Virus record (IMG/VR): IMGVR_UViG_3300033066_000693
Location: 128,001-192,000 of that record
Strand: one strand, 5' to 3'
DNA from: a virus
Length of the DNA: 64,000 nt
The position numbers and the translations under genes were made by a program. This document shows, in pieces, positions 4,897-25,417 of the stretch; position 1 is the first letter of the stretch; every line of letters begins with the position of its first letter. The notes under the pieces were generated by a model. That model was not told the DNA's origin, made no database searches, and saw only the letters and a list, made by a program, of their open reading frames with translations.

Positions 4897-5204
4897 TTTC
4901 TTGTTCCATCCATAAAAGCAGAATGAGTGGCGTCTGCCATTTTTCTCAGGTCGTCAATGGAAAAAGACGGAAACTGACGTTTCAAATAACCGTCAATAGC
5001 TCCAACAAGATCGGCCAACTCTATAAGGGCCATAAGGCGATTCTGTTGAGCTTCTGCGTCTTGCAGTTCCTCTACTTCCTCTCGGAGCTTGGAACTAAAA
5101 CCGTACTCACCCTTCTGTATCTTCGCTAGATGATAACCCATTATTTTCCTCCGGGAAACAAGATCCCTGTTCTGACTGCTTTGCCCAATCGCCCTTCTTG
5201 ACAA
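4893..5204 (-). CDS. MazG-like all-alpha NTP pyrophosphohydrolase domain protein
   Basis: The sequence LREEVEELQDAEAQ...LIELADLVGAIDGYL resembles the MazG/HisE EExxE...D helix pair. The ORF overlaps the Dam MTase by about 98 nt as drawn. An internal Met at 5141 is a likelier start. Confidence 0.5.
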   Translation of the reverse strand: MSRRAIGQSSQNRDLVSRRKIMGYHLAKIQKGEYGFSSKLREEVEELQDAEAQQNRLMALIELADLVGAIDGYLKRQFPSFSIDDLRKMADATHSAFMDGTRK

Positions 5205-6503: not shown

Positions 6504-7987
6504 TAGCGGTCAACTCCACCCGGATCTTCCGTAACGTCTCTATCTTCGAACAACTCAGCAACAACTTCGTCTGCCTTCTTAGTTTCAATCTCTCCAAAGA
6601 AATCCTGCTCTTGAACAAAGAACTTGTCATCGAAGCCTAGGAATCTCTCCCAAATCAGGTCATACTTCAATGGGTCTGGTCCATAAGCGATTCCAATAAC
6701 TCGCAACAGAACGCTGGCATATCCTGAGCCTCGACCGCATCCCGTCAGGATGTTGCGCTTCTTCGCCTCTTGCATGTAGTCTCGAACAATCAAGAAGTAC
6801 GTAGCAAAATCGTACTTGTTGTTGTCCCAAGCAACTCGAACGTCCTCAATTTCTTGCTTGAGTCTATCAATATGCGGCTGGCTGCTCTCCCAACCAAGCT
6901 TCTTCATGCCCTCCCACGCAAGATGCTCCATATACTCCATTGGAGTCTTGAACGGAGGCGGAACCTTGTATGGAGGCAGCCGCATGCCTGAAGTCATGTT
7001 CTCATAGATGTTGTTGGCATCAATCTTGTCGGAAACCATTACAGTATTGAACAAGAACTCGGGATTAGAGCCAAAAATCTTCCCCATCTCTTCTGCCGAC
7101 TTGAGATAGAATTCATGATACGGGAAGTGAAGGTGCTTTGGGTCATGCAGACAACGACTGGTCATCATGCACATGAGGAGTTCTTGCGAAAGACCCTGCT
7201 CTTTCTGGCAGTAATGACAATCATTTGTTGCAATGATTGGAACATTCATTTCCTTGCCGAGCTTGATAACGTCTGGAATGATAAGAGCTTCGGCGTCAAT
7301 GCCGTGATACATGACTTCCAAATGGAAATCTTCCTTGAAGATATCCTTGAAGATTCCTACGGCCTTTCGTGCCATGTCAAAGCGATCATGAAGAAGGTTG
7401 GCATTGACAACGCTGCTAAGGCAAGCGGAATTGCAAATCAATCCTTCGCTATGAGCCGCCAAGGTTGGCAAATCAATACGAGGATCAATGTAATAGCCTT
7501 CGGTCCATGCTTTTTGCGAAAGCGTACAGAGGTTCTGCCAACCCTTCCAGTTCTTTGCAATCAGCACCAAGTGACGGTTGCCTCGCCGTCCGTCTGTTTG
7601 CCCTAGAATGGTCTTAGAACCCTCTTTGCGCTGCGTATAGTTGATGGTTCTGTCTTTGGCAAGATAGAACTCGCAACCGCAAATAGGCTTGATATCGAAC
7701 TTCTTGTTGTCTGAACTTCGACACGCATTCATGAACTTGATAGACCCGCCAATGTTACCGTGATCGGTAAGGGCGATAGACTTGAAGCCCATTTCCTTTG
7801 CTCGCTCTGGTAGCGATAACCAAGGCTTCTTGCTCTTGTCTTTTTCAGGGTGCGCTTGGATTCGATTCAGACCGTCAAAAGACGAGTATTCTGAATGATT
7901 GTGGAGATGAACAAAGTCTGCGTTGTTTATGAATCGAGGCATAGGGCTTAGTCGGCATTTCTCCCTCGGGAAGACAGAGAGCCACAC
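6500..7987 (-). CDS. dnaE: DNA polymerase III alpha (DnaE-type) N-terminal fragment: PHP domain and start of palm
   Basis: The PHP motif FVHLHNHSEYSSFDG (HxH...D) is present. GCGRGSGYASVLLRVIGIAYGPDPLKYDLIWERFLG matches E. coli [33 protein letters not shown]. The ORF stops about 45 aa after ERFLG, before the catalytic PDFDxDF motif, which lies in ORF 2306..4291. Confidence 0.9.
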   Translation of the reverse strand: MWLSVFPREKCRLSPMPRFINNADFVHLHNHSEYSSFDGLNRIQAHPEKDKSKKPWLSLPERAKEMGFKSIALTDHGNIGGSIKFMNACRSSDNKKFDIKPICGCEFYLAKDRTINYTQRKEGSKTILGQTDGRRGNRHLVLIAKNWKGWQNLCTLSQKAWTEGYYIDPRIDLPTLAAHSEGLICNSACLSSVVNANLLHDRFDMARKAVGIFKDIFKEDFHLEVMYHGIDAEALIIPDVIKLGKEMNVPIIATNDCHYCQKEQGLSQELLMCMMTSRCLHDPKHLHFPYHEFYLKSAEEMGKIFGSNPEFLFNTVMVSDKIDANNIYENMTSGMRLPPYKVPPPFKTPMEYMEHLAWEGMKKLGWESSQPHIDRLKQEIEDVRVAWDNNKYDFATYFLIVRDYMQEAKKRNILTGCGRGSGYASVLLRVIGIAYGPDPLKYDLIWERFLGFDDKFFVQEQDFFGEIETKKADEVVAELFEDRDVTEDPGGVDRY

Positions 7988-9675: not shown

Positions 9676-10151
9676 ATGAGTTCGATTCTTTCGTCTTCAT
9701 CCTCGTCCGTAGTAGGATCATCGTCAAACTGCAAGTCTTTTCTTGCTCCATACTTCTTTTCTAGGTACTCGGAATCAACAATGTAAGTATCCCATTCCTT
9801 GCGCCAGAATGGCAGCCAAGAGTCGGCAATAGACGGCAGAGGCTCTGGGGTTTTCCACCCAGATTCATTGCACCAGCAAGTAAGACACCTAATGTCTGTA
9901 TTGTGTATGTCTTTTGAAGATGGTCGGTAGTCAGCTATATAGACCTTGCCATTCCAATAGAAATGGCATTCTAACATAGCAAAACCAAATGGACTTCGTA
10001 TAGTAACTCTTGAGCTAACCATCCACTCATTGCGCTTAGAACTTGCGCCTGTAGAATATGTATGAACATTCATTATGCGACAAACTTTTTTGTACGAACC
10101 GTTTGCCTGCAAAAGAGTTAGATCTGTAAACTGTATCTCAAAATCCATCAA
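9672..10151 (-). CDS. hypothetical protein with a Cys/His cluster and an acidic tail
   Basis: 159 aa containing RCLTCWC and an acidic C-terminus DDDPTTDEDEDE. Confidence 0.5.
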   Translation of the reverse strand: MMDFEIQFTDLTLLQANGSYKKVCRIMNVHTYSTGASSKRNEWMVSSRVTIRSPFGFAMLECHFYWNGKVYIADYRPSSKDIHNTDIRCLTCWCNESGWKTPEPLPSIADSWLPFWRKEWDTYIVDSEYLEKKYGARKDLQFDDDPTTDEDEDERIELI

Positions 10152-11008
10152 AAAACCTCGTTCTCAACTACTTCCTTAGGTATTTCTGCCTTGCTTTCCT
10201 TCAATCTTTGAGATCTTGGCACGTAAGGTTCGAAGATGTTGGCAATGTTGTTTATCCTATCCCGAGCGTATTTAACATCGCCTTCTGAGTTATCTATGCC
10301 TATGTAGTTTCGGCCAGTCATCTTAGCAACTGCGCCGGTTGTACCAGTCCCCATAAATGGGTCTAGGATAGTATTGCCTCGATAGCTAAATAGCTTCAAG
10401 ATACGAGTAACAAGCTCTTCTGGATATGGCGCAGGATGTCCATTTCTGTTCTTAGTTTCTGGCTGAATGAACCATGTACTAAACGTCCATTCTTGGAACT
10501 CTTTAGGGGTCATGTCGGAAAGCTCGCTATCGCCTTCCAAGCCAAACTCGTCTTTAGACCAAACAAGAACATATTCATGAGTTCTTCTAAGCGCTGGATT
10601 TGAGCATGAACACCAAGAACCGAATGCCGTAGCTCTTCCAGACCAGTTCTGCTTGTACCAGCAAATTTCTACGCGAAACTTCAAGCCTATTTCTCGCCCT
10701 ATGTTTACTAGGTCGGCATAAATAGGACGCATGTATTCTTCGCCGTCTTGCAGATTACGCACAGAGTCTATGTTGATGGCTATTCTGCCTCCTGAAACAA
10801 GAACTCGCTTGCATTCAATGAGAATGTCTTTCAGCCATGCAAGGTAATGAGCATAAGGATCGTTATCCTTTCGATTCTTGTATTTAATGTTGATGTTGTA
10901 AGGAGGCGAAGTGCATACTAAGTGTACGGTTTCGTCTGGGATCTTTCGAAGGCCATCAAGAACGTCGTCAAACATGATGGTATTGAGTAGCTGATCTATG
11001 GGTATCAT
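10148..11008 (-). CDS. beta-class DNA methyltransferase (N4-cytosine/N6-adenine, PF01555-like)
   Basis: Motif IV SPPY (LVCTSPPYNI) lies N-terminal and motif I C-terminal (ILDPFMGTGTTGAVA), the beta-class order. Confidence 0.85.
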   Translation of the reverse strand: MIPIDQLLNTIMFDDVLDGLRKIPDETVHLVCTSPPYNINIKYKNRKDNDPYAHYLAWLKDILIECKRVLVSGGRIAINIDSVRNLQDGEEYMRPIYADLVNIGREIGLKFRVEICWYKQNWSGRATAFGSWCSCSNPALRRTHEYVLVWSKDEFGLEGDSELSDMTPKEFQEWTFSTWFIQPETKNRNGHPAPYPEELVTRILKLFSYRGNTILDPFMGTGTTGAVAKMTGRNYIGIDNSEGDVKYARDRINNIANIFEPYVPRSQRLKESKAEIPKEVVENEVF

Positions 11009-11778
11009 TTGCTTTCCTTTGAATCGAATATCGTGGTAAGCTGACTTACCCGTTCCTGCGCGATATCTATGGCTTGTTTACTCTTGTCGGAACCTATGGA
11101 GTATCTTCCTAATGAAACACCAGTCTCTATCAATGATCCACTTCCGCAGAACGGATCTAGAATCCTGCTTTCTGCATTACTCCATATTTCTACGACCCTT
11201 TGCATGAGCTTTCTAGGCTTCTGCGTTGCATAGCCTGTTTTCTCTGGCTCATTCCTACAAAGAGCAGGGATATCCGTCCACCAATCCTCTAAAAGCTTGC
11301 CCTTTTGCTCGTATTTTTCCCAAGGAATCTTCTCTTTAGACCAAGCCGCTGCCCCTCCAACATTCATCTTTGTCTTATAAGGAATGCGAGGCTGGTTAAA
11401 GATATAGTCGCCTACTCCGTACCAAAGAATCGTATTATGTTTTCTAGGGAGCCATTTCTTAGCACTAGCTGGGTTGCTAAAGCACCATATGATCTCGTTT
11501 TTGAAGCTATCCCTACCAAACATTCCGTCCATCATTACCTTGAGATAATGAACAGCCTTATAGTCAACATGGACAAGGATATTGGCGCTGGGCTTCATTA
11601 GCTTTTGAAGGTTCTCCAACCGTTCCTTCATATAGGCTAGAAACTCGTCCAGAGTCTCGCCTTCGCCATAATACTCGTCCTCTTTCTTAGAGCTATATGG
11701 TGGGTCCAAATAGATAAGATCAACCGGATCGATAACTAGGTCTTTACAATCTGTAAGATGTAGCTCGTACTTATTCAT
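11005..11778 (-). CDS. beta-class N6-adenine DNA methyltransferase
   Basis: DPPY (LIYLDPPYSS) lies N-terminal and motif I C-terminal (ILDPFCGSGSLIETG). Confidence 0.85.
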   Translation of the reverse strand: MNKYELHLTDCKDLVIDPVDLIYLDPPYSSKKEDEYYGEGETLDEFLAYMKERLENLQKLMKPSANILVHVDYKAVHYLKVMMDGMFGRDSFKNEIIWCFSNPASAKKWLPRKHNTILWYGVGDYIFNQPRIPYKTKMNVGGAAAWSKEKIPWEKYEQKGKLLEDWWTDIPALCRNEPEKTGYATQKPRKLMQRVVEIWSNAESRILDPFCGSGSLIETGVSLGRYSIGSDKSKQAIDIAQERVSQLTTIFDSKESK

Positions 11779-12403
11779 AACTTCTGAAATCTTTGGCGCT
11801 CTGTATTTCCTCTTGCTTCTGCTTTTCTAGGAACATCTGATACCTATATCCGGTTCTCTTTGGAAGAGCGTCAGATAGCTTTTCTAGTTCCTCAAGATTC
11901 TCGATAAGAACCAAGCTATCTGCGAGAGCAAATACCTTCTCGGCAATCTGAATCTCATTGGGGTCAAAGTTTACTTTGCGCAGAAAATCATGCATATGGA
12001 CGCTAATAAACAATGAAGAAGCGAGGAGGTCTTCTCCCTTGTCTTCCTTGCCCGGGTCATTGATGTGAAGCAGTATCTCTCGAATGACTGATTCTAAAAC
12101 GTCGTCTATGTTGATATTCAGACCAGCCGAAAGTCTTTGAATAGTCTCCTTGATAGAGATCTGTTCGTAGGAAGCTATGAACTGGATAATAGAGCCTGCG
12201 CTCTTGCAGCCGTAGCAATAGTAATCCTGCCGAGTAGGTTTGTCATAGACGAAGAATGACGGCGTTTTGTCAGACTTATGAGACGGCAATGGACAACGGT
12301 ACTTGTATCTACCTCCGTCAAAAGACGACCATTGAACTCCCTTAGAAGAAAGGTAGTCTGTTATCTTGTTGGCCTTGATAATCGTGTCAAGAATAATGCT
12401 CAT
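11771..12403 (-). CDS. DnaG-type CHC2 zinc-finger protein (primase N-terminal domain only, no TOPRIM)
   Basis: YRCPLPSHKSDKTPSFFVY...YYCYGCKSAGSIIQF matches the CHC2 consensus CPFH.EKTPSF.V...Y.CFGCG.GG. No E...DxD TOPRIM motif occurs in the 210 aa. Confidence 0.7.
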   Translation of the reverse strand: MSIILDTIIKANKITDYLSSKGVQWSSFDGGRYKYRCPLPSHKSDKTPSFFVYDKPTRQDYYCYGCKSAGSIIQFIASYEQISIKETIQRLSAGLNINIDDVLESVIREILLHINDPGKEDKGEDLLASSLFISVHMHDFLRKVNFDPNEIQIAEKVFALADSLVLIENLEELEKLSDALPKRTGYRYQMFLEKQKQEEIQSAKDFRSYE

Positions 12404-13986
12404 AGTTCAAAACCCAAATCGTCTGTACTTTGACTGGCTTTCTTTGCAATCTTCGGCTTTTCCTTGGGCGTTATCATGGGCTTTGGCGGCTCGTCGTCAA
12501 AGGCCAAATCAATATCAGGATTGGGCGACGGAGCAGACTCGCCTCGTCGCAGGACTTCCGAAGCGTCCGGGTCATTATCTGCCCAACTAGCGTCTACAAA
12601 TGCGCTTATCTTGCCAATCTTGGGGTATACGTCTAGGGTTGCTTTAGATTGATTATGATGCGGTCCAAACATGGTTGAACCATATCTGGACTTGACGCAG
12701 AATAGGTAAAGCTTTTCTTCTGACTGTTCAGGATGTCTTACTTGAACATAGATGTTATCAGCGTCAGCGGAGAAGTCATGAGAACCTCTCAAAGCGTCGG
12801 AGCCTACAGATTGCTTGCCTTCTTTCTGGTTGCGTAGAGACTTGATAGCCTCTCGATTTAGCTGCACCGCTGAGAGTACAGCGAATCCCATCTTCCTTCC
12901 AAGCTGTCGCAAGTCTTTGCACATCTGTCCGTACCAGCTATGCTCTGCTAGCTTTTGGTACCAAGGCTCTGGGCTAAGAATGGAGATATAGTCAATGACA
13001 ACCAATCGAACCTTGAAGAAGTGCTTTCGCTTTTCTAGCTCGGCGCGAATCTTCGAGACTGTCATTCTCTCTTGGGCGTCTAGAATGGCAAACTTCGAGC
13101 TTATTTGCTTGAAATCTTCGGCAGCTTTCTTTACTCTAGCCTTCTCATCAGCGGTCAGTAAATTTGGCTTTGCAAGCTTCGAGGAATCGATCTCCGCCTC
13201 TCTGGAAATGATACGCTGCATAAGACGATCCTTGGGCATTTCCAAGGATACGTACAGAACATTTTCTCCTGATTGCTTGCATACATTCAGGGAGATATTG
13301 ATCATCGTAGCAGACTTGAATCCACCTACGTCAGCAACGATAAGAGTTAGAGAGCCGGGGTCCAAGCCAATAGGCATGGTTTCATCAAAAGGCAATATGC
13401 CAGTCTGCAAAACCTTCTTAGGATTGAGAGCTTCTTTCTCTAACTGGTCATACCAATCTGGACCGTAATCGTCAACGTTCACCCATGTAGCGGCATTGTT
13501 CTCGTCCGCGCTAGAAACAAGTATGTTTAGATCGTCAGCTATATCTCTAACAGCGCTGACATAATCCTTGTTCTTGTTTGTATTGAAGCGATCAAAAAAC
13601 TCTCCGCTCTTTCTCTTTATGTAATACTCTCTGACCTTACGGCAAATGAGAGGAAAATCCTGAGGGTCTACTTTATCTAGATTGGTAATTAGCTGAAAGT
13701 TTCGCTTCTCTGTTTGCTGAGCAAACTTAGCGCTTTCGATCTCGCTACCAGTCCATTTTTTGTAGTCTCCATTGGCGGCGGCGCGAGCTATAAAATCAAG
13801 GTAATAGTTTTCTGTAAACTTTTCTGAATCTTGATGAGATTGTTCTATGCCATAGATAAACGGGCGATACTTGCTTTCAAAGTACGCAGGCCCCATTTGT
13901 TCCGCAAGAAACTCTGGAATAAGTTCGTTGCGATTTATTACTAGATGCAGTAGTTTTTCTTGAGCTTCAAGTTCTGTTATTGCCAT
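12400..13986 (-). CDS. dnaB: DnaB-family replicative DNA helicase
   Basis: Walker A lies in LTLIVADVGGFKSATMIN. A Walker B/H2-like LVVIDYISIL is present. N-terminal domain plus RecA-like C-domain architecture. ATG at 13986 is preceded by GGGGGA. Confidence 0.85.
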   Translation of the reverse strand: MAITELEAQEKLLHLVINRNELIPEFLAEQMGPAYFESKYRPFIYGIEQSHQDSEKFTENYYLDFIARAAANGDYKKWTGSEIESAKFAQQTEKRNFQLITNLDKVDPQDFPLICRKVREYYIKRKSGEFFDRFNTNKNKDYVSAVRDIADDLNILVSSADENNAATWVNVDDYGPDWYDQLEKEALNPKKVLQTGILPFDETMPIGLDPGSLTLIVADVGGFKSATMINISLNVCKQSGENVLYVSLEMPKDRLMQRIISREAEIDSSKLAKPNLLTADEKARVKKAAEDFKQISSKFAILDAQERMTVSKIRAELEKRKHFFKVRLVVIDYISILSPEPWYQKLAEHSWYGQMCKDLRQLGRKMGFAVLSAVQLNREAIKSLRNQKEGKQSVGSDALRGSHDFSADADNIYVQVRHPEQSEEKLYLFCVKSRYGSTMFGPHHNQSKATLDVYPKIGKISAFVDASWADNDPDASEVLRRGESAPSPNPDIDLAFDDEPPKPMITPKEKPKIAKKASQSTDDLGFEL

Positions 13987-14895: not shown

Positions 14896-17895
14896 TTACA
14901 GATCAAGGTCATGGCCTTTTTTCTGGTTTGAAGAGCGTACCTTATCTCTTGTGTTGGCAAACTTACATCTACCTTCTGCCCATTTTCGCATAGCGCTAAA
15001 ATCTTCAGCGCGAGTGCTAGACAATGCGCAGATGCTCTTACATGACGCCATCAAGTCTGTGGTTGTAATCGGCCTCTTGCCGTCGCAGAAACACTCGAAC
15101 ATGGCATTCTCAATGGTTTTCTCGATCTCTGCTCCGCTGAAACCGTCCGTACTACTAGCCAACGCATCAGTATCAAACTTACTGCTATCAAACTTGAACT
15201 TCTTAAGAAGAACTTCGTAGATCTGCCGCCTACCAATATGATTAGGCAAGTCAACAAAGAATACTTCGTCAAAACGTCCCGCTCTCATGAACTCAGGCGG
15301 AATATCTTGAACGTTGTTTGCAGTACAGATAACGAATACAGGAGCGGTCTTCTCTTGCAACCAAGTAAGGAAAGTACCAATGACTCTCTTAGTTGTTCCG
15401 CTGTCGCCAGAACCCTGACCAACTCCGCCAGCCAAACCCTTCTCAATCTCGTCTGCCCAAAGAATGCAGTTATGGCATAGGAAGCCATTGGCAAAGAAGT
15501 TGTGATTCTTTTCGCAGGATAGGTCATACGCCCACTGCGTTTCTGCAATCTGTATGCTGTCGATTTTGACGCCAACAACGTCAGAAGAAAGAAGTTTGGT
15601 CATCTCTCCGAGGTTCTTTCGTGCCAGATTAGCAGTAAGGAAATCATGAAGATCAATAGCGACATTCTGATTTACAAACGCATTTGGCTGCTCAAAAACC
15701 GCCATTTCCTGATCATTGTATTCAAGTTCGGTAATCCCATACTCATGTCGGATAGCAGAGAGAACTTTACCAAGCTGGTATCCAACAACCTCAACCCTAT
15801 TCATAGGAGAGCTAACTACAAGGTCCATAAAAGCTTCAACAGACCTAACTCTCTTCCTGTTAAAGATGGGTATGATATGGAAGAATCTTTCTATCTGCTC
15901 TGTCTCCATAACAATGCAGCTTTGCGGAGACAAGAATGAAATGATACCGAAGGTATGCAAAACAGTCTTGACTCTTTGAAATGTCGAAGGCGTATTGCAC
16001 TTCATTGCTACAAAAGGCTTGACCGGATTTCTCTGTTGGGCGTCTGCAAACCCAAAGTATCCAGCGCCATGAAAGAATCCAGCCAAGTAGAATGAAAGGA
16101 TTTCCTTAGACTGCGAAGCTAAGTTCTCCTTGAATCCCGCCAAGGCCTGAGTAACAACCTTGTTCGTCAAAAGAACCATGTTGTTCTCGAAGCTCGGCTC
16201 TGTCAAAAACGATTCCGACATCATTCCAGCAAAGAAGAACCTAATCTTTGGATCAGCATGATGGAACATGATCTCGCCGGTATCCTTATGAAAAGTACCG
16301 CAAGCGTCCATCATGCCAAATACGGTCGCAATCTGAATCAGATTCAGGTGCTTATCATTGATGCAAGCCTTATGGAGTTTTCCATTAGCTCGCATACTAA
16401 TGCTGCCTTCCTTCTTGCCCGGGAAAAGGCTAGTCAAAGAAAGAGTCTTCTTGTCTCTACGAAGCGTTTTGGGGGTAATAAGAAGATCGTTCTCAACAAG
16501 ATCCTTAGCTTCTACCCAAACAAGCTTTCCGTCACGATTGACCATCATCTTGTGGTCATGCGTAACCTCGATAGAGCCTACAGCCGTCCTGAGACGGAGC
16601 ATCTTCTTCTGCTCTGCGTGACGAATAATCGCTTTTACCCGAGTCTTTTCTAGCTTGAGAGTCTTTTCATTGAAAGAGTAAGTATAGAAAGGCTTCTTAT
16701 CAACAGACTCAAGCAAGTCTTTGACAAGATGCGACTTACCGTTTTCGTCATACACAACCGAGTTACCAGATACGCATGGCGCTACCGTCTCTGCCAACTT
16801 GATGACATGGCGAGCTATTTTTTCCGATTCGCCAACCAATGAGTTGAACATCTTTCCGAAGTCCAACCTCAAAAGAGGCATCTCATACAATGAAGCTGCG
16901 GCCTTAGCGGTAAGAGACTTACCGCAACCGGGCATGCCAAGAAGCAATACACCGCGAGGCGGCTTGAGTCCATACTCTGCTGCGTCCTTGGTAAATGCCT
17001 GCTTACGAAGGTTCAACCAGTGAGAAAGGTCGTCCAAACCTCCTACGTCTTGCATATCAATGTTTGAGTCAACATACTCAAGAATATCTGTCTTCTTGAT
17101 AATCTGCTTCTTCTCTTGAAGAATGATGTTGATATCAAACGGTTTAACTCCAAGCTGACTGCTCATGACAATAGATTTGGCATACGCTTGGCTAGCTTCG
17201 ATAGTCGTAAGTCCCTTGACTGAATTGATAAGCTCTTCTTGATGAAGTTCGACTTCTTTTCCTATGCCCGGAAATCCTGTCTTGACCTTATCTGTATCAA
17301 CAAGATCGAAGAGAATAGAGCGAATCTCTCCCTCATTAGGGAAAGGGAAATCCAATGCGGATATCTCCTTTTCCAAGGCAGGATTGGTAATGTAGTTTGG
17401 ACCAGTCAGAATGACATGGCAGTTGCTTGTAATGCGATTGATGTGCTTAAGCTGTCTCTCAATCTGAGGACTGCATCTCTCAGGTGAGAGATAGCGATAA
17501 AAGTCGCACAAGATATAGATTGAACCGTTGCCCGGCTCTTTGAGATTCTTTTTCTTCTCTAGCTCGCTGATAATGAAGGACAGAATACCTTCAGGGTATC
17601 TAGCGTCTACGGTAGCTGGCATGGTAATAGCTTCGTTTTTCTTGAGCTTTCTCAAGAGACGAAAGCAATCCCACTCGAAAGGCTCATAGCCTCTCGCAAT
17701 GCTTACGCTTTGAAGGTAATCTAGAAGCCGACTTTCCTCATTCGTTGAAATGTAAATGAGGTTCGTTCTTGTCCGCAATAGAGCTATCAGACTGTTGTTG
17801 AAATCCTCAGTTGCCATACTGAGGTATTGCTTCTGATAGTCTTCGGAAGACGCGAGAGGATTATCCTGTTGGCTTGGCTTCGGTGCTTTCGACAT
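14896..17895 (-). CDS. classical AAA-family ATPase (CDC48/FtsH-type cassette) interrupted by an intein
   Basis: MQDVGGLDDL...GLKPPRGVLLLGMPGCGKSLTAKAAAS gives Walker A. After the intein, ILWADEIEKG gives Walker B. FVICTANNVQDIPPEFMRAGRFDEVFFVDLP is the SRH/Arg finger and GFSGAEIE is sensor 2. The ORF overlaps the IF3 gene by 35 nt, so the true start may be the Met at 17817. Confidence 0.85.
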   Translation of the reverse strand: MSKAPKPSQQDNPLASSEDYQKQYLSMATEDFNNSLIALLRTRTNLIYISTNEESRLLDYLQSVSIARGYEPFEWDCFRLLRKLKKNEAITMPATVDARYPEGILSFIISELEKKKNLKEPGNGSIYILCDFYRYLSPERCSPQIERQLKHINRITSNCHVILTGPNYITNPALEKEISALDFPFPNEGEIRSILFDLVDTDKVKTGFPGIGKEVELHQEELINSVKGLTTIEASQAYAKSIVMSSQLGVKPFDINIILQEKKQIIKKTDILEYVDSNIDMQDVGGLDDLSHWLNLRKQAFTKDAAEYGLKPPRGVLLLGMPGCGKSLTAKAAASLYEMPLLRLDFGKMFNSLVGESEKIARHVIKLAETVAPCVSGNSVVYDENGKSHLVKDLLESVDKKPFYTYSFNEKTLKLEKTRVKAIIRHAEQKKMLRLRTAVGSIEVTHDHKMMVNRDGKLVWVEAKDLVENDLLITPKTLRRDKKTLSLTSLFPGKKEGSISMRANGKLHKACINDKHLNLIQIATVFGMMDACGTFHKDTGEIMFHHADPKIRFFFAGMMSESFLTEPSFENNMVLLTNKVVTQALAGFKENLASQSKEILSFYLAGFFHGAGYFGFADAQQRNPVKPFVAMKCNTPSTFQRVKTVLHTFGIISFLSPQSCIVMETEQIERFFHIIPIFNRKRVRSVEAFMDLVVSSPMNRVEVVGYQLGKVLSAIRHEYGITELEYNDQEMAVFEQPNAFVNQNVAIDLHDFLTANLARKNLGEMTKLLSSDVVGVKIDSIQIAETQWAYDLSCEKNHNFFANGFLCHNCILWADEIEKGLAGGVGQGSGDSGTTKRVIGTFLTWLQEKTAPVFVICTANNVQDIPPEFMRAGRFDEVFFVDLPNHIGRRQIYEVLLKKFKFDSSKFDTDALASSTDGFSGAEIEKTIENAMFECFCDGKRPITTTDLMASCKSICALSSTRAEDFSAMRKWAEGRCKFANTRDKVRSSNQKKGHDLDL
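15469..16776 (-). mobile_element. intein (436 aa) with LAGLIDADG-type homing endonuclease domain, inserted between Walker A and Walker B of the AAA ATPase
   Basis: The N-terminal splice junction is ...ETVAP|CVSGNSVV, with Cys1 confirmed as tgc at 16774-16776. The C-terminal junction is ...NGFLCHN|CILWADEIE, with HN then Cys+1 confirmed at 15466-15474. Two internal LAGLIDADG-like motifs occur (IATVFGMMDACGTF and FYLAGFFHGAGYFGF). Excision restores the contiguous AAA sequence LAETVAP-CILWADEIEKG. Confidence 0.75.
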
Positions 17896-18391
17896 TAGTG
17901 GCTTCTTTAATAGGCTTCAATATCACAAAAATCTCACGATCCGCAACCTTTAGATCGTCCCATTTAGCGATATTGCGCAAATCAGCCACGTTCTCTTCGA
18001 GCATCTTTTTTGCATGTTCTTTGAATGCTCGTTCTCTTCCTTTAAGCTCCACACCAAACTTGACTATGCACTTCTTTTCCAGCATAGTTCGCACTTTATT
18101 CTTCTTGATGTCAATATCATGCTGATGCTCTTTTAGAACGAACATCATTTCTTTTGTCTTCACTGTCTTCTGCGCCGCCTTCTTAGAGGCTTCAAACTTC
18201 ATCTTGCCAACATCGCCCCACTTGCAGAGCGGTATCCCTTTTTCAGTCTTTGCAACCTGAATAAGGTCTAAGCCCTTTTCCTTTGCCTGAGAAATAGCCA
18301 ATCGCTTGACAACTTCTGCTCTCTGCCCGTCCTGACCAATCACTACTACAGTATGACCGTAGATCTCATCGTTTGCTAGTATCTTGTTCAC
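17861..18391 (-). CDS. infC: translation initiation factor IF-3
   Basis: The protein is collinear with bacterial IF3 over its full length. EIYGHTVVVIGQDGQ...AKEKGLDLIQVAKTEKGIPLCKWGDVGKMKFE aligns with EIRAQEVRLTGLEGE...[31 protein letters not shown]. The C-domain segment KFGVELKGRERAF...REIFVILKP aligns with RFRGREMAH...RQMIMVLAP. The start is a GTG at 18389-18391 preceded by AAGGAG with an 8-nt spacer. Confidence 0.85.
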   Translation of the reverse strand: MNKILANDEIYGHTVVVIGQDGQRAEVVKRLAISQAKEKGLDLIQVAKTEKGIPLCKWGDVGKMKFEASKKAAQKTVKTKEMMFVLKEHQHDIDIKKNKVRTMLEKKCIVKFGVELKGRERAFKEHAKKMLEENVADLRNIAKWDDLKVADREIFVILKPIKEATNVESTEAKPTG

Positions 18392-18403
18392 CCTTCCTAC
18401 TCC

Positions 18404-19339
18404 TTACACGAACTCTTTGGCCGTGTTTGTAAACTGAATATTCGTCTCTTGAATCCCCGCCAGAATCTCCGACAGTCCCTCTACATTGTAAGATAATGGA
18501 TAGGGTTGCAACGACTTGGTTGATCTAACGATCTTCTGCAACGTAGACTCGCCTTCTTTGCGAGCGTCTAGTAATATGTCGGCCACAATCTTCTTAGCTT
18601 TGATTACTGGTAAGCTTTTCTTGTTTACCAACCATGCCATCGCTATTACTACTCCATAGTTGGTAAGAAAGCTAATCTTGTCTACATTGAATGTACGATC
18701 TATGCTACCAAAATCTACCTCAACATTCGGGATAACAATGGCCGCAACTGATTGAGGCTCTTGATACTCTCTAAGAAAACGCTTTACAGAAGCTTTGTTT
18801 CTAATGTGGATAGGACGGAAAAACCCTGCCTTGGCAATAATCTTCTCTAGCTCATTGGCAACAAACCATTCTATGTAGTTCTTGATAAATGAGTTGGAGA
18901 CTTCGTAGCCATTCAGGTTTTTGAAATCTTCCTTGAGCGTCTTAATGGTAATAGCACCTACTTGATTTGTTGTAGTAAACTCAACGCCCGGATACTTGGC
19001 ACGATACAACTCTTTGAAGTGAACAAAGAAGTATGCTGGTTTCCATTCCTCAACAGGAAGTTCCATAGAATAACTACGTGGCTTCTTATACTTGATTTGG
19101 TTCCATTCAAGTTCACCGCTTGAGCCAGTTGGGTCAACTACCTTGCCGTGTTTGTCCACTACTTCTAGCTTTGGCTCGTCTATGATCTCAAAGATATCGT
19201 CCTGCTTTTGCTTTGTTTTAGGACCGATTCCAAGGAGAGCATTCTTCTCGCTCTTGCCGAGCATACTCTCAAAGGCCGAAGGCTTCTCGATAGTCTTCAT
19301 CTTTTCCTTTTTAGGCTTCTTCGCCATACTACTGCCCAA
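18404..19339 (-). CDS. hypothetical protein
   Basis: 311-aa ORF with a basic N-terminus. Confidence 0.5.
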   Translation of the reverse strand: MGSSMAKKPKKEKMKTIEKPSAFESMLGKSEKNALLGIGPKTKQKQDDIFEIIDEPKLEVVDKHGKVVDPTGSSGELEWNQIKYKKPRSYSMELPVEEWKPAYFFVHFKELYRAKYPGVEFTTTNQVGAITIKTLKEDFKNLNGYEVSNSFIKNYIEWFVANELEKIIAKAGFFRPIHIRNKASVKRFLREYQEPQSVAAIVIPNVEVDFGSIDRTFNVDKISFLTNYGVVIAMAWLVNKKSLPVIKAKKIVADILLDARKEGESTLQKIVRSTKSLQPYPLSYNVEGLSEILAGIQETNIQFTNTAKEFV

Positions 19340-20426
19340 TGATTACATATTCAACGCCGCTGGTATTATCCTCGGCGCGACACTTATACTCGTAGGAGAG
19401 TTCTTTCATTTCAACTTTTTTCTTGAAAGGCTTTACCATATCTGATATAGTGGTTATATCGGCCCAACTGCTATTGTTGTAGCTAATGGCCCATGCAGCA
19501 TTGCCGGGAAGCGCAGCCAACAAGTCTGCAAAACTCTCTTTGTACGTCTTAGCCTTAACAAACTTCTTTGAGGCGTCTTTGAGATATGGGATTTTTCCTA
19601 TCTCTTGCTGGGCAAGATACTCTTCAAAGAACTGATACATGAAAGCATAATCGCTTTGCTGTCCGCCATACGGAGGGTCAATGTATATGAGATCAAACTT
19701 CGTTTGATTAGCCTTCAAGAAGTCAAAAACATCTCCATGATTGCAATGGCTATGCGGTCCAGTAATGTTGAACAAGAACGGCTTCATCTTATGGAAAGCC
19801 ATCTCCTTGTTTTGATTGCGTTGATGCTCAAGGCGATGTTTGAGTCCAGCAATAACCTGACCGCTATTAAGCCTACCGCCTACGTAGCAATGACTCATAA
19901 TGAAATGAATCAATGACGTATGAGCAACTGCCATTTTTACGCTTACGGCGTCTCCAAATACCGCTTTGCAGTTTGCATAGTAGTTGTCTATAAACTTGCA
20001 TTCTCGAATAGTAAAACGAATGTCGCCATACTTGGCTTCAACGAAGTTGGCTTTGTTCTTGTTGTCGTTCTCGGTCAAGAACCGCCATTCTTCCTTCGAA
20101 ATTCGGCCCTCCTGACCATTCAACAAGGCTATGCCATTCAAATATGAAGATTGCAAGATATCGTTACAGGTGACAGTCTTTCCCAGCATCCTAAAGAAAG
20201 CTGAGACAACAGAGCTACCCATAAAAAGATCGCAAACGTTATGGATGGAGTCCCATTCGAGTGCGTCATAGAGAGCTAACCCTATATCTGGCAAGATCTT
20301 ACGTTTATTGCCAACATAGGGATTAGGAATAACTCCAAGCGAGTTTTGTGCCGTCAAAGCGTCTGACGTAAATGTATCTCTTGGGGACGACGCAAAGATA
20401 TTATCAAACTGCTCAAGCTTATGCAT
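19329..20426 (-). CDS. D12-class (alpha-class) N6-adenine DNA methyltransferase
   Basis: The N-terminal YVGNKRKILPDI...VCDLFMGSSVVSAFF matches the D12 opening GGK...EPFxGxGsv (motif I). The DPPY motif lies downstream in FDLIYIDPPYGG. Confidence 0.8.
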   Translation of the reverse strand: MHKLEQFDNIFASSPRDTFTSDALTAQNSLGVIPNPYVGNKRKILPDIGLALYDALEWDSIHNVCDLFMGSSVVSAFFRMLGKTVTCNDILQSSYLNGIALLNGQEGRISKEEWRFLTENDNKNKANFVEAKYGDIRFTIRECKFIDNYYANCKAVFGDAVSVKMAVAHTSLIHFIMSHCYVGGRLNSGQVIAGLKHRLEHQRNQNKEMAFHKMKPFLFNITGPHSHCNHGDVFDFLKANQTKFDLIYIDPPYGGQQSDYAFMYQFFEEYLAQQEIGKIPYLKDASKKFVKAKTYKESFADLLAALPGNAAWAISYNNSSWADITTISDMVKPFKKKVEMKELSYEYKCRAEDNTSGVEYVIIGQ

Positions 20427-23502: not shown

Positions 23503-24693
23503 TTATCTCTCGTGGTTCAGATTGACATTATAAGTCCAAGTAATGCCTATCTTAGGATGTATTCCGAACAGCTTTTGTTCGGCAATGTTACCCGGCATAG
23601 CATTGCTAAGGGAGTACACATCTCCGCCTACAAAGCATCCGTTCATAAGTATTCGACCATTGTGCGTCGTAAACTCAGAGCAGTTATGAAAATGGCCGCA
23701 AAGCGTATAGTTTGGAATCTGCTTTGTTAGACCAGTCATCTTTCGCTCAAGATCCAAGAAAGAAGTAACCGGAGGATTCTTGCCCTTTACGTCGTCTCCG
23801 TGAACCATCAAGAACTTATGGTTCTGTACCTCCTTGATCATCCACCAACTCTTCTCGATGTTGAACTTGATACGAGGTTGCTCTCTAAACTCAAGCTCAA
23901 GATACTTGTAGCAGAACAAGTCAAAGTTGTTGTACTTCTTCTCTGCGCCGGTCGGGGCAATGCGACCATGATTGCCATACAAACCATAGAACTCAACCTC
24001 GTCAAACAAGGTTAGCATGTAGTAGATGAAGTCGGCAATAGCTCGATAGCCGATCATAACTTGATCGAATACAGGCGTTCCAATGTAGACGGCTGACCAT
24101 GCGCCTGCGGTATTCGCTCCTTCAACTATGTCTCCTAGAGAGAAGATATGGAGCTTTGGAATCTTGTACAGCTTAGAGTGAAGCTCTTTGATATCAGTAA
24201 TGGCCTTCTTCAGATTTTCCATGCGCTGAAGAAAGATATCAATGTTGTACTCTGATAGTCCGCCTGTTTCTTCAAGCGTATGCTCATGCCCAACATGAAG
24301 GTCGCTAAAGATTAGCCCCATGTCTTCGGCTGTACGATGAGAAGAAACTGTCGGCGTATAAACCGGAGGCGGAGCAATAGGAAGCTTTCGAGCGGCTTCA
24401 TAAAGCTTGTCTGCTATGATGTCCGCTTGCAAACGGTACTTATCTAGAGACTTCCCGATGCTAACTTCATGCTTGAGAAGACCCTGAGTAATGGTGGCTT
24501 GGCGATTCTCTTTGGCTTCCTCGTCATGGAAGTCAAAGTCTTCCCAGTTTGTATCTTTGTTGTACTTCGTCTCGCAAGCAGCATAGCTGCGATTGAGCAT
24601 GGAGGCTATAACCTTGTAAGGCGTCCCCTTCTGTCTCTCGGTATAAAGTAGTTCTAGCTCTTCGTTTGTCCACTTCCTATCACAGCTTGACAT
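23503..24693 (-). CDS. calcineurin-like metallophosphoesterase (Mre11/SbcD-like nuclease) with N-terminal Myb/SANT-like segment
   Basis: The phosphoesterase motifs occur in order: SDLHVGH (D.H), GDIVEG (GD), GNHG (GNH), MVHGDD and CGHFHN (GH.H). The N-terminus KWTNEELELLYTERQKGTPYKVIASML is Myb-like. Confidence 0.75.
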   Translation of the reverse strand: MSSCDRKWTNEELELLYTERQKGTPYKVIASMLNRSYAACETKYNKDTNWEDFDFHDEEAKENRQATITQGLLKHEVSIGKSLDKYRLQADIIADKLYEAARKLPIAPPPVYTPTVSSHRTAEDMGLIFSDLHVGHEHTLEETGGLSEYNIDIFLQRMENLKKAITDIKELHSKLYKIPKLHIFSLGDIVEGANTAGAWSAVYIGTPVFDQVMIGYRAIADFIYYMLTLFDEVEFYGLYGNHGRIAPTGAEKKYNNFDLFCYKYLELEFREQPRIKFNIEKSWWMIKEVQNHKFLMVHGDDVKGKNPPVTSFLDLERKMTGLTKQIPNYTLCGHFHNCSEFTTHNGRILMNGCFVGGDVYSLSNAMPGNIAEQKLFGIHPKIGITWTYNVNLNHER

Positions 24694-25417
24694 TCTTAAT
24701 CCTTTGCAAAAATGCGGCCAAGACTGTATTGTAGGAAGACAACTGCTTGAGTTTGTTCCGACGAGTCATGCCGTTTGGGTTTACTCTGTACTTTATTAGG
24801 TAGTCTTGAAGATTGTGAAACTTCTTTCCTTCAAGGATAGCTCGACACCAGAAGTCAAAATCATGGGCTGAGTCAACGCTAGGGTTCTGCGTATAACCGC
24901 CCAATTGTTTGTAGTCTGCTACTCTAAACATCGACGTAGGATTGATAATCGGACACTTGCGATAAATCGCCAACATCGTCACGATTTCTTTGTGATCTGA
25001 TGGCGGGAAATCCCAATCTCCAATAAAATCGCCATGAACGCCTATCTTCTTTGCTCTGCCGCCCACGCAAAATACATCTGCATGTGAATCTAGATAGGCC
25101 GCTTGAGCCTCTAACCTATTCGACATGCTTATGTCGTCGCCGTCATGGATGGCAATATACTCTCCACGGGCTAGTTCGATAGCCTCTTTGGATCGAGCGC
25201 TCACTCCTCGATTTTCGCTCGAATCAATGTACCTAAACCGCTCATCATTAGCTTCTGTATGTAACGCTCGTATAATCTTTCCAGTATCGTCGGTTGAACC
25301 ATCGTTGATCACGATAAGCTCAAGGTCTTTATAGCTCTGATTGAGAATAGAACGAATAGACTCTTCTATGAAGTCTTGGCAGTTATAGGCAGGAGTTATA
25401 ACGGTTATCTTAGGCAT
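24680..25417 (-). CDS. family-2 glycosyltransferase (GT-A fold)
   Basis: PKITVITPAYNCQDFIEESIRSILNQSYKDLELIVINDGSTDDT is a canonical GT2 N-terminus. DGDD/DxD-like motifs are present. Confidence 0.85.
   Translation of the reverse strand: MPKITVITPAYNCQDFIEESIRSILNQSYKDLELIVINDGSTDDTGKIIRALHTEANDERFRYIDSSENRGVSARSKEAIELARGEYIAIHDGDDISMSNRLEAQAAYLDSHADVFCVGGRAKKIGVHGDFIGDWDFPPSDHKEIVTMLAIYRKCPIINPTSMFRVADYKQLGGYTQNPSVDSAHDFDFWCRAILEGKKFHNLQDYLIKYRVNPNGMTRRNKLKQLSSYNTVLAAFLQRIKNVKL

What the first reader, a model, noticed from the sequence alone, without database searches (positions are those of the whole stretch)
17861..18391. Phage-encoded full-length translation initiation factor IF3
The 176-aa product is collinear with bacterial IF3 in both the N and C domains. 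It starts with GTG behind a strong SD. Virus-encoded IF3 is rare and implies direct manipulation of host translation initiation fidelity. That could include discrimination of non-canonical starts, and several genes here use GTG or TTG. The gene is wedged between a DNA MTase-containing block and the intein-containing ATPase, not in a translation operon, consistent with a phage-acquired gene.
Basis: partly seen in the sequence, partly recalled or inferred. Interest (0 to 1): 0.6.

Follow-up and report, generated by a model that had tools for sequence, protein, structure and literature searches.

The report
Huge-phage IF3 gene with GTG start

Summary
The ORF is real: window 17861-18391, minus strand, 176 aa, GTG start 8 nt after an AAGGAG Shine-Dalgarno. 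It passes the curated cut-offs of IF3_N, IF3_C and the full-length infC equivalog TIGR00168. Its AlphaFold model superposes on 30S-bound bacterial IF3.

The context is a 98%-coding, single-strand block of phage-type replication genes and giant surface proteins. Relatives lie in the same gene order on 101-505 kb contigs, several catalogued in IMG/VR. No hallmark capsid or terminase gene was seen in the about 84 kb examined.

IF3 diverges in step with DnaB and primase, and dN/dS is about 0.09. No cellular genome carries the clade's signature peptides. It is therefore an old, vertically inherited viral gene, not a recent host pick-up.

Phage IF3 is already reported (Al-Shayeb 2020; Iyer 2021; phrog_9787), so this is a new member of a known kind.

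Two details are new:
- In 10 of 12 lineages the gene starts with GTG or TTG, while about 96% of neighbouring genes start with ATG. It never uses the AUU/AUC start that autoregulates cellular infC.
- Several basic residues of the 30S/codon-facing surface are replaced.

Function is untested.

The parts
17861..18391 (-). IF3 (infC-like) coding sequence, 176 aa plus stop; GTG start at 18391-18389
   Evidence: ORF. TIGR00168 79.1 bits, above the 60-bit cut-off. Pfam IF3_N and IF3_C above their cut-offs. Fold match to 30S-bound IF3.
18400..18405 (-). Shine-Dalgarno AAGGAG, 8 nt upstream of the GTG; it overlaps the TAA stop (18404-18406) of the upstream gene
   Evidence: Sequence. Longest SD match among the 40 window genes. 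The stop/SD/start junction is conserved in other lineages.
18170..18373 (-). IF3 N-terminal domain (aa 7-74)
   Evidence: PF05198, 48.7 bits. Model strands and helix at aa 14-59, pLDDT about 90.
18158..18211 (-). Lysine-rich helical linker (about aa 61-78), 5 residues shorter than in E. coli IF3
   Evidence: Helix at aa 61-72 in the model. Alignment to E. coli and Geobacillus IF3.
17912..18163 (-). IF3 C-terminal domain (aa 77-160), beta-alpha-beta-alpha-beta-beta fold
   Evidence: PF00707, 45.5 bits. Secondary structure. Foldseek hits to isolated IF3 C-domains, target-normalised TM 0.75-0.85.
17864..17911 (-). Variable, disordered C-terminal tail (aa 161-176); it overlaps the start of the next gene
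   Evidence: pLDDT below 50 for aa 164-176. Not conserved in the clade alignment.
17861..17895 (-). 35-nt overlap between the IF3 3' end and the ATG of the AAA ATPase gene (likely translational coupling)
   Evidence: Similar overlaps of 23-38 nt occur in most related loci; there is no overlap in L024 and L025, and the gene is absent in L015.
18404..19327 (-). Conserved but fast-evolving upstream partner gene (307 aa, function unknown); its stop lies inside the IF3 SD
   Evidence: Present directly upstream of IF3 in every locus. 22-30% identity where IF3 is 41-59%. No family or structure match.
14896..17895 (-). Downstream AAA ATPase (999 aa) interrupted by an intein of about 435 aa
   Evidence: phrog_8638, 1.5e-121. 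Pfam AAA / Intein_splicing / AAA / AAA_lid_3 on the identical gene in L001. Intein boundaries.

Best explanation
The gene encodes a working IF3-type factor of an uncultivated huge phage lineage whose largest contigs reach about 500 kb.

Shown:
- It has both IF3 domains, the linker and the IF3 fold.
- It is under strong purifying selection.
- It has been inherited vertically, at one fixed place in the replication-gene module, across lineages whose synonymous sites are saturated.

Inferred:
- The protein binds the host 30S subunit at the IF3 site. The C-domain would sit near the P site on h44/h24/h45, and the N-domain and linker on the platform and the initiator-tRNA elbow.
- It supplements or replaces host IF3 during infection. 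That would keep 30S subunits free and keep initiation fast and selective for phage mRNAs, which are about 96% AUG-initiated and often SD-led.
- Its own synthesis is set by an unusual design: the strongest SD in the region, a weak GUG/UUG start, and coupling to the upstream gene's stop codon.
- GUG and UUG are 'canonical' for IF3, whereas cellular infC uses AUU/AUC to be repressed by IF3. The viral copy should therefore escape the host's IF3 feedback loop while still being made in modest amounts.
- Replacement of several basic residues on the ribosome/codon-facing surface suggests adaptation to the unknown host's ribosome, or altered stringency.
For: IF3 identity:
- Curated profile cut-offs are passed.
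- PDB sequence matches to IF3.
- Fold match to full-length IF3 on the 30S, TM 0.64-0.75.

Selection and inheritance:
- 38 invariant columns among 20 clade members.
- dN/dS is 0.09 on the only unsaturated pair; dS is saturated elsewhere.
- IF3 identity tracks DnaB and primase: 59% versus 61%/61% to L004, and 41% versus 43%/34% to L024.
- The synteny hyp-IF3-[AAA or intein ORF]-hyp-DnaB-primase holds in all loci, including members at about 41% identity.

Viral context:
- Relatives are in IMG/VR on 101-494 kb contigs.
- PHROG replication hits.
- 98% coding, with 40 co-directional genes.
- No clade member found in GTDB species genomes.

Expression design:
- Start codons across 12 lineages are GTG 6, TTG 4, ATG 2.
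- Other called genes in eight of the same loci are 105 ATG, 2 GTG, 2 TTG.
- IF3 has the best SD in the window.

Literature:
- AUG, GUG and UUG are canonical for IF3, and infC uses AUU/AUC and is autoregulated. A 10-fold IF3 excess lowers a GUG mRNA by only 20-25% and a UUG mRNA marginally, versus more than 60% for AUU (PMC5499595).
- B. subtilis infC also starts with AUU (PMC1865079).

Residues retained: K66, G71, K72, F75 (Tyr75 stacks on h23, PMC5037330), K79, D106, K110, K131, R133.
Against: - No experiment exists for any phage IF3; PMC11895373 states the function is unknown.
- The host is unknown, so fit to its ribosome and comparison with its infC could not be tested.
- Several residues that are basic in the E. 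coli and Geobacillus IF3s are non-basic here. R20 becomes Y, R25 becomes I/V, R112 becomes N/T, R116 is variable, R129 becomes E/Q, and R168 becomes N in most members (R in the window). R99, which is S in Geobacillus, becomes H (V in the window). 30S binding or fidelity could therefore differ from the textbook factor.
- The score on TIGR00168 (79 bits) is only modestly above the cut-off.
- No other translation gene or tRNA was found in the 64-kb window or in the 9 related loci scanned for tRNAs. There is no sign here of a wider translation-takeover toolkit.
- Hallmark virion genes were not found in the roughly 84 kb inspected.
- The 'escape from autoregulation' step is inference from the start codon alone. 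In four lineages an in-frame ATT or ATA directly precedes the GTG, so an AUU/AUA start cannot be strictly excluded there.
Confidence: 0.7

Rival explanations
1. Takeover by altered stringency. The viral IF3 is not a simple supplement. Because it is exempt from AUU-based feedback, it raises total IF3 activity or changes its specificity. Host infC (AUU) and other weak, non-canonical or leaderless host starts would be shut down, while the AUG-rich phage genes are favoured. Alternatively it competes with host IF3 as a variant with relaxed or shifted fidelity.
For: - The non-AUU start is conserved.
- About 96% of phage genes start with ATG, versus about 80% on average in bacteria (PMC5499595).
- Residues equivalent to T. 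thermophilus Arg91 and Arg159 are substituted. Those residues lie next to the start codon and anticodon stem in PMC5037330; the mapping to E. coli R99 and R168 is my inference from the RG motif.
- The core clade's N-domain has Y in place of R20, whereas more distant viral relatives keep R.
Against: - It is purely inferential.
- Excess IF3 has only mild effects on GUG and UUG mRNAs in vitro (PMC5499595).
- The window's own protein differs from its clade at two of these sites (V99, R168), so no single 'rewired' surface is conserved.
- The host's start-codon usage is unknown.
Confidence: 0.2
2. Ribosome mobilisation. The factor mainly helps split or keep apart 70S/100S ribosomes, through recycling, exit from hibernation or rescue. 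This would let a very large phage use the idle ribosomes of slow-growing environmental hosts.
For: [quoted passage not shown]
- Anti-association is a core IF3 activity (PMC5037330 introduction).
- The relatives come from environmental and host-associated metagenomes.
Against: - No RRF, HPF, EF-G or rescue genes were seen near it.
- Nothing in the sequence distinguishes this role from ordinary IF3 function.
Confidence: 0.1
3. Moonlighting outside translation. Because the gene is fixed inside the replication module (helicase-MTase-x-IF3-AAA-x-DnaB-primase), the IF3 fold may have been recruited as a nucleic-acid-binding accessory of replication or of the neighbouring AAA ATPase.
For: - Invariant position among replication genes.
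- Divergence at several ribosome-contacting arginines.
- In unrelated jumbo phages IF3 also sits beside Clp/AAA+-type genes.
Against: - Both domains, the linker length class, Tyr75-equivalent F75, K110, K131 and R133 are all kept.
- The equivalog-level model is passed.
- Phage early regions commonly mix functions.
- The AAA neighbour is absent or replaced in several lineages while IF3 stays.
Confidence: 0.05
4. It is not viral: the window is cellular DNA (for example a tiny-genome bacterium), a megaplasmid, or a host fragment mis-assembled with phage DNA, and this is simply the organism's own infC.
For: - No capsid, portal or terminase gene was recognised in the window or in about 20 kb beyond it.
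- The word-based search's nearest non-clade hits include a Candidatus Pacebacteria IF3.
- The window's exact sequence is not in IMG/VR.
Against: - There is no infC-rpmI-rplT context, no tRNA, and no other housekeeping gene.
- 40 genes lie on one strand at 98% coding density.
- Replication genes match PHROG families and phage helicases.
- The region has five DNA methyltransferase genes (four in the window, one just beyond it) and inteins.
- Relatives are catalogued as viral genomes.
- The signature peptides are absent from 185,579 species genomes.
- The start codon is not AUU/AUC as in cellular infC (PMC5499595).
Confidence: 0.05

Closest known systems
Bacterial translation initiation factor IF3 (infC; TIGR00168; PF05198 + PF00707)
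   Same: The two-domain architecture with a helical lysine-rich linker, and a similar length of about 170-180 aa. The fold superposes on 30S-bound IF3. The aromatic residue at the Tyr75 position is kept, as are D106, K110, a basic residue at 131, G132 and R133.
   Different: - Identity is only 25-30% to E. coli and Geobacillus and 36% to a Pacebacteria IF3, whereas those three share 37-54% with each other.
- There is no infC-rpmI-rplT operon.
- The start is GUG/UUG instead of the autoregulatory AUU/AUC (PMC5499595, PMC1865079).
- Arginines equivalent to E. coli 20, 25, 99, 112, 116 and 129 are lost, and 168 in most members.
- The linker is 5 residues shorter.
IF3 genes of cultured jumbo phages (phrog_9787; Asteriusvirus-like 'group 2.2' phages such as Munch and A4; Vibrio phage 2.275.O; Sinorhizobium phage Phosso) and of metagenomic huge phages (Al-Shayeb et al. 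2020)
   Same: A full-length IF3 encoded by a phage genome larger than 200 kb, outside a ribosomal operon (PMC7162821, PMC7824862). None of the five examined uses AUU: Phosso uses GTG, the Vibrio phage TTG, and Munch, A4 and Hallingskeid ATG. Function is untested in all (PMC11895373).
   Different: - This is a separate lineage, with 26-32% identity to them, which is no closer than to bacteria.
- Phosso's copy is clearly bacterial-like at 42-44% and looks like an independent, later capture.
- There is no DNA or gene-order similarity to any GenBank phage.
- Those phages pair IF3 with ClpS/ClpX-type genes, S21 or tRNAs. Here it sits between an unknown gene and an AAA ATPase in the replication module, with no tRNA nearby.
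Mitochondrial IF3 (IF3mt)
   Same: The same two-domain fold; Foldseek E-values 1e-8 to 1e-9.
   Different: Only 16% identity. IF3mt carries N- and C-terminal extensions (PMC6352543). The viral protein has only a short disordered C-tail.

Membership tests
Bacterial-type IF3 (infC) | N-terminal domain matching PF05198 above the gathering score | tested here: met
   48.7 bits against a cut-off of 26.9; aa 7-74 on profile positions 2-69 of 70.
Bacterial-type IF3 (infC) | C-terminal domain matching PF00707 above the gathering score | tested here: met
   45.5 bits against a cut-off of 34.8; aa 77-160 on profile positions 1-85 of 86.
Bacterial-type IF3 (infC) | Full-length equivalog model TIGR00168 above the curated cut-off | tested here: met
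   79.1 bits against a cut-off of 60; profile positions 4-169 of 170.
Bacterial-type IF3 (infC) | Dumbbell fold: alpha/beta N-domain, long helical basic linker, beta-alpha-beta-alpha-beta-beta C-domain | tested here: met
   AF2 model with pLDDT 82 and matching secondary structure. Foldseek top hits are 9a5a_B, 5lmn_X and 5lms_X, TM 0.64-0.75 over 166-171 columns.
Bacterial-type IF3 (infC) | Conserved 30S/mRNA-facing residues (E. coli numbering: Y75, K110 and the C-domain arginines 99, 112, 116, 129, 131, 133, 168). The arginine list is recalled from Petrelli et al. 2003 and was not retrievable here. Tyr75 and the T. thermophilus Arg91/Arg123/Arg159 contacts come from PMC5037330. | tested here: inconclusive
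   Kept: F75, K110, K131, R133. Changed: R99 to V (H in the clade), R112 to N, R116 to T, R129 to E. R168 is kept in the window but is N/D in most of the clade. Some of these sites also vary among bacteria; for example, position 99 is S in Geobacillus.
Bacterial-type IF3 (infC) | Atypical AUU/AUC start codon giving IF3 autoregulation (PMC5499595, PMC1865079) | tested here: not met
   GTG in the window. Across 12 lineages: GTG 6, TTG 4, ATG 2; never clearly AUU/AUC. This is a feature of the gene's regulation, not of the protein family.
Bacterial-type IF3 (infC) | Operon context infC-rpmI-rplT | tested here: not met
   The neighbours are an unknown gene, an MTase, a helicase, an AAA ATPase and DnaB. 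No L35 or L20 domain was found in the window.
Bacterial-type IF3 (infC) | Biochemical activity: 30S binding, anti-association, rejection of non-canonical initiation complexes | not testable with these tools
   Needs purified protein and ribosomes.
Phage-encoded IF3 of huge/jumbo phages (phrog_9787; Al-Shayeb 2020) | Match to the viral IF3 family profile | tested here: met
   phrog_9787, 1.4e-17; aa 1-160 on profile positions 1-166 of 168.
Phage-encoded IF3 of huge/jumbo phages (phrog_9787; Al-Shayeb 2020) | Encoded on a phage genome of 200 kb or more | tested here: inconclusive
   Relatives in identical synteny lie on IMG/VR contigs of 257-494 kb and JGI contigs of 334-505 kb. A cluster member 99% identical to the window's protein occurs on a 257,887-bp contig. 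Phage-type genes surround it. Capsid and terminase genes were not seen in the parts available.

The most novel reading that the evidence does not exclude
Phage IF3 genes, here and in at least two other independent phage lineages, have exchanged the cellular AUU/AUC autoregulatory start for GUG/UUG behind a strong SD. The viral factor would then accumulate outside the host's IF3 homeostat. Together with a remodelled codon-facing surface, it would raise or shift initiation stringency. That would silence host infC and other weak-start or leaderless host mRNAs and favour the phage's almost exclusively AUG-initiated genes. This would be a host-takeover mechanism acting on start-codon selection.
Probability: 0.15. 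Interest if true: 0.7.

Novelty: new member of a known kind. Interest (0 to 1): 0.35.

Why it matters
Virus-encoded translation factors blur the line between viruses and cells, and no phage IF3 has been studied experimentally. This lineage offers a clean case for doing so. The gene is a long-retained, strongly constrained core gene, which argues that it does something useful. It also carries a conserved, easily testable regulatory signature: a strong SD with a GUG/UUG start instead of the cellular AUU. If the viral factor changes start-site selection, it would be a new way for phages to redirect host ribosomes. If it simply tops up IF3, it shows which step of initiation limits very large phages. 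As a gene annotation, however, it adds another lineage to an already reported phenomenon.

Tried and rejected
1. RegA-like partner. The upstream gene gave a weak PF01818 'bacteriophage translational regulator' hit (E 0.0066, 16.8 bits, below the 25-bit cut-off). Only 1 of 6 orthologs repeats it, and neither family profile finds RegA or anything else in the PDB. PHROGs also gave nothing consistent. I rejected it as chance.
2. Structure of the partner gene. The homolog search found only the protein itself. The single-sequence model has pLDDT 36 and is unusable.
3. DNA-level relatives among GenBank phages: none. The exact window 41-mer is not in IMG/VR.
4. Identifying the cellular donor or host.
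   - Clade-signature peptides are absent from GTDB species genomes.
   - Broader alignments were too divergent for the pattern scan.
   - The exhaustive profile search returns unnamed metagenomic proteins.
   - The two intermediates I could place are again phage-syntenic.
Hints of a Bacillota-like host are weak: strong SD use, helicase hits to Bacillus phages, and a SpoVS gene.
5. Survey for other translation genes. There are no tRNAs in the window or in 9 related loci. No ribosomal-protein, IF1 or EF domain was found in any window ORF scanned. The phrog_4806 'histidyl tRNA synthetase' label on window 4291-4896 has no Pfam support.
6. Hallmark virion genes. PHROG and Pfam scans of the giant proteins and unknown ORFs, tblastn searches, and walking about 10 kb beyond each end found only adhesin-like domains and more replication and recombination genes.
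7. Promoter and terminator scan around the gene: at chance level, so uninformative.
8. The literature search for the arginine-scan paper on the IF3 C-domain failed. That residue list is therefore marked as recalled.

Full report
OBSERVATION

The window holds a 176-aa ORF at 17861-18391, on the minus strand. It starts with GTG at 18391-18389. The upstream gene's TAA stop (18406-18404) lies in the same frame 12 nt earlier, so this GTG is the first possible start. The hexamer AAGGAG (18405-18400) sits 8 nt upstream. It is the longest Shine-Dalgarno match among all 40 genes of the window. The 3' end overlaps the ATG of the next gene by 35 nt.

IDENTITY

- Pfam IF3_N scores 48.7 bits (cut-off 26.9) and IF3_C scores 45.5 bits (cut-off 34.8).
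- The full-length NCBIfam equivalog TIGR00168 infC scores 79.1 bits (cut-off 60).
- PHROGs already holds a viral family for this protein, phrog_9787 'translation initiation factor' (1.4e-17).
- PDB sequence matches are all IF3.
- An AlphaFold2 model built on 20 clade sequences (pLDDT 82) shows an alpha/beta N-domain, a helical linker and a beta-alpha-beta-alpha-beta-beta C-domain. The last 13 residues (aa 164-176) are disordered.
- Foldseek ranks full-length bacterial IF3 bound to the 30S subunit first, with TM 0.64-0.75 and 27-30% identity.

CONTEXT: PHAGE OR HOST?

The window is 98% coding, with 40 genes all on the minus strand and GC 43.5%.

Genes around IF3:
- an SF2 helicase;
- four DNA methyltransferases;
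- DnaB and a primase;
- an exonuclease;
- three glycosyltransferases;
- a split PolIII-alpha;
- an AAA ATPase carrying an intein.

Further along lie four giant proteins of 1,449-3,246 aa with Kelch, laminin-G and fibronectin-III domains.

There is no DNA similarity to any GenBank phage. The large protein collection, however, holds a tight clade of about 30 IF3 clusters at 51-65% identity, on contigs up to 505 kb. In every locus I could read, IF3 lies in the same order: helicase, D12 MTase, unknown gene of about 300 aa, IF3, AAA ATPase or intein-like ORF, unknown gene of about 287 aa, DnaB, primase. Six such loci are IMG/VR viral genomes of 101-494 kb.

An exhaustive profile search of 1.84 billion representatives shows a graded series beyond the clade. 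The two intermediates I could place, at about 41% identity, are again in the same synteny. The clade's signature peptides occur in none of 185,579 species-representative genomes.

Walking about 10 kb beyond each window end finds more giant proteins on one side. On the other side are RecA, Toprim, SpoVS, a weak Sipho_Gp157 match, UvrD and another MTase. No ribosomal operon and no tRNA appear.

I did not find a capsid, portal or terminase gene in the DNA available. That is the one gap in the viral assignment. I put viral origin at about 0.9.

EVOLUTIONARY STATUS

- Between the window and the 505-kb lineage, IF3 is 59% identical. That is like DnaB (61%) and primase (61%).
- To the distant L024 lineage, IF3 is 41% identical, against 43% for DnaB and 34% for primase.
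- The only pair that is not saturated at synonymous sites gives dN/dS = 0.09.
- 38 alignment columns are invariant among 20 members.

So the gene is a constrained, vertically inherited core gene of a broad huge-phage lineage, not a recent acquisition.

Against model cellular IF3s it is 25-30% identical to E. coli and Geobacillus and 36% to a Pacebacteria IF3. Those three share 37-54% among themselves. Phosso's IF3 is 42-44% identical to bacterial IF3s, so it is a separate, later capture. The Munch/Vibrio group forms a third lineage.

WHAT IS ALREADY KNOWN

- Al-Shayeb et al. [quoted passage not shown]
- Iyer et al. 2021 note IF3 in group 2.2 jumbo phages (PMC7824862).
- Soil huge phages also carry it (PMC11748809).
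- A 2025 phage genome paper states that its function in phages 'cannot be definitively stated' (PMC11895373).
- tblastn finds IF3-like genes in 33 of 50,697 GenBank phage records, mostly jumbo phages and many annotated as IF-3.

The finding is therefore a new member of a known kind. It is rare among phages overall, but it is a recognised trait of very large ones.

A DETAIL THAT SEEMS NEW: THE START CODON

The homologous start position lies 5-8 codons before the conserved N-[DE]-E-I motif (N-E-N-I and N-D-A-I in the two distant lineages L024 and L025), usually behind an AAGGAG-type SD. Start codons at that position:

| Start | Lineages |
|---|---|
| GTG (6) | window, L004, L007/L012, L013, L014, L015 |
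| TTG (4) | L009, L016, L018, L024 |
| ATG (2) | L017, L025 |

By contrast, the other called genes in eight of the same loci (L001, L004, L007 and L014-L018) start with ATG in 105 of 109 cases. In the window's own locus, IF3 is the only non-ATG gene of 23. With SD-aware start choice, 36 of 40 window genes use ATG. Two of the other three non-ATG calls are artefacts: a truncated ORF at the window edge, and a gene that the database calls with ATG. The third (5982-6503) is unverified.

Synonymous sites are saturated between these lineages. Keeping a non-ATG start, and swapping between GTG and TTG, therefore looks selected. The lineages are not independent samples, so no formal probability is attached.

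Cellular infC is famous for an AUU/AUC start through which IF3 represses its own translation (PMC5499595; B. subtilis in PMC1865079). The same source states that AUG, GUG and UUG are all accepted by IF3 as canonical. A tenfold IF3 excess lowers a GUG mRNA by only 20-25% and a UUG mRNA marginally, against more than 60% for AUU.

The viral gene therefore has neither the cellular autoregulatory codon nor the phage's usual ATG. It combines the strongest SD with a weak but IF3-tolerated start, and it is coupled to the upstream gene's stop codon. Two of three other phage IF3 lineages also use GTG (Phosso) or TTG (Vibrio phage); the Munch group uses ATG.

Caveat: in L007/L012 an in-frame ATT directly precedes the GTG, and in L004/L015 an in-frame ATA does, with a short SD spacing. 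In L025 an ATA has better spacing than the called ATG.

PROTEIN SURFACE

Mapped on E. coli numbering, the clade keeps K66, G71, K72, F75, K79, D106, K110, K131 and R133. Tyr75 stacks on h23 and affects fidelity (PMC5037330).

It has lost basic residues as follows:

| E. coli position | Clade residue |
|---|---|
| 20 | Y |
| 25 | I/V |
| 99 | H (V in the window) |
| 112 | N/T |
| 116 | variable |
| 129 | E/Q |
| 168 | N/D in most members (R in the window) |

In the T. thermophilus complexes, Arg91, Arg123 and Arg159 lie by the start codon and anticodon stem (PMC5037330). By the RG motif these correspond to E. coli 99, 131 and 168; that correspondence is my inference. More distant viral relatives still have R at position 20. 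I read this as a diverged ribosome-facing surface whose consequence cannot be judged without the host ribosome.

MECHANISM

Most likely (0.7): this is a working IF3 that binds host 30S subunits and supplements or replaces host IF3 during infection. It would be made in modest amounts from a start region that host IF3 feedback cannot shut off.

- Shown: family membership, fold, selection, inheritance and start-region design.
- Inferred: 30S binding, benefit to phage translation and escape from feedback.

Rivals:
- takeover by altered stringency (0.2);
- ribosome mobilisation from hibernation or recycling (0.1);
- a non-translational role in the replication module (0.05);
- non-viral origin (0.05).

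DEAD ENDS

- A weak RegA-like hit on the upstream partner proved to be chance.
- That partner remains unknown.
- The donor and the host could not be identified.

VERDICT

The 'rare and novel' framing is overstated, and the proposed GTG/TTG link is wrong as stated. The gene's own conserved non-AUG, non-AUU start and its status as an ancient core gene are modest additions that can be tested. Interest is 0.35.

Noticed in passing
window 14896-17895 (-); L004:10506-11870; L007:10506-11828; L014:6506-7828; L024:8514-9884: In the window, the gene after IF3 is an AAA ATPase split by an intein of about 435 aa. In four sister lineages the gene at that position is 440-456 aa and carries no AAA domain. 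In L004 it aligns only with the intein part (34% identity, window aa 375-809; it ends ILCYN-stop), and there is no room for exteins. L007, L014 and L024 are inferred from gene size and Pfam marks alone. L025 has the ATPase without an intein (549 aa), and L015 has neither. So a free-standing intein-like ORF occupies the locus where the host gene seems to have been lost.
   Followed up: partly
L019-L023 (GenBank phages Phosso, Munch, A4, Vibrio 2.275.O, Hallingskeid); window 14896-18391: In unrelated jumbo phages the IF3 gene lies next to Clp/AAA+-type genes. Phosso has a ClpX-like ATPase just upstream. Munch, A4 and Hallingskeid have a ClpS-like adaptor/protease gene just downstream. The Vibrio phage has S21 and then an L7/L12/ClpS-like gene downstream. 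In the window an AAA ATPase follows, with an overlapping start. The recurrence may be coincidence or a functional link.
   Followed up: no
L007:9998-10003, L012, L004:9998-10003, L015:3995-4000, L025:7995-8003: An in-frame ATT (L007/L012) or ATA (L004/L015) codon sits immediately before the GTG start of IF3. In L025 an ATA two codons before the called ATG has better SD spacing. In some lineages, initiation at a cellular-infC-like AUU/AUA codon cannot be excluded.
   Followed up: partly
window 2306-7987 (-): PolIII-alpha (DnaE) is encoded in two separate ORFs, a PHP/N-terminal half at 6500-7987 and a C-terminal half at 2306-4291. Three genes separate them: a 173-aa ORF, a DNA methyltransferase (5107-5997) and a 201-aa protein (4291-4896). 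The 201-aa protein hits phrog_4806, labelled 'histidyl tRNA synthetase' (3.5e-28), but has no Pfam match, so the label looks unreliable.
   Followed up: partly
window 27279-54218 (-) and L026:2830-9981: Four consecutive giant genes (3,246, 1,449, 1,524 and 2,754 aa) carry Kelch beta-propeller, laminin-G-like and fibronectin-III domains. Further giant genes of 2,383 aa (DUF642) and 1,180 aa or more lie just outside the window. These may be fibres or adhesins. There are no informative PHROG matches.
   Followed up: partly
window 5107-5997, 10148-11008, 11005-11778, 19329-20426 (-); L027:12853-13752: The density of DNA methyltransferase genes is unusually high: four in the window (N6_N4 and D12 classes) and another just beyond it. 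Three glycosyltransferases lie at 24680-27277.
   Followed up: no
L014:1103-4021; L015:305-3058; L025:2982-5942 and 11065-13983; L004:18344 onward: Inteins or homing endonucleases sit in different replication genes in different lineages: the helicase in L014, L015 and L025, DnaB in L025, DnaE in L004/L005, and the AAA ATPase in the window. This indicates active intein mobility within the phage family.
   Followed up: no
window 18404-19327 (-): The gene directly upstream of IF3 is present in every lineage but evolves two to three times faster than its neighbours (22-30% identity where IF3 is 41-59%). It has a lysine-rich N-terminus and invariant Trp and Tyr residues. It matches no known family or structure. 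A weak RegA-like Pfam hit was shown to be chance.
   Followed up: yes
L027:7880-8191: A SpoVS-family gene (PF04232) lies about 4 kb beyond the window's low-coordinate end. Together with strong SD usage and helicase similarity to Bacillus phages, including the 497-kb phage G, it hints weakly at a Bacillota-type host.
   Followed up: no
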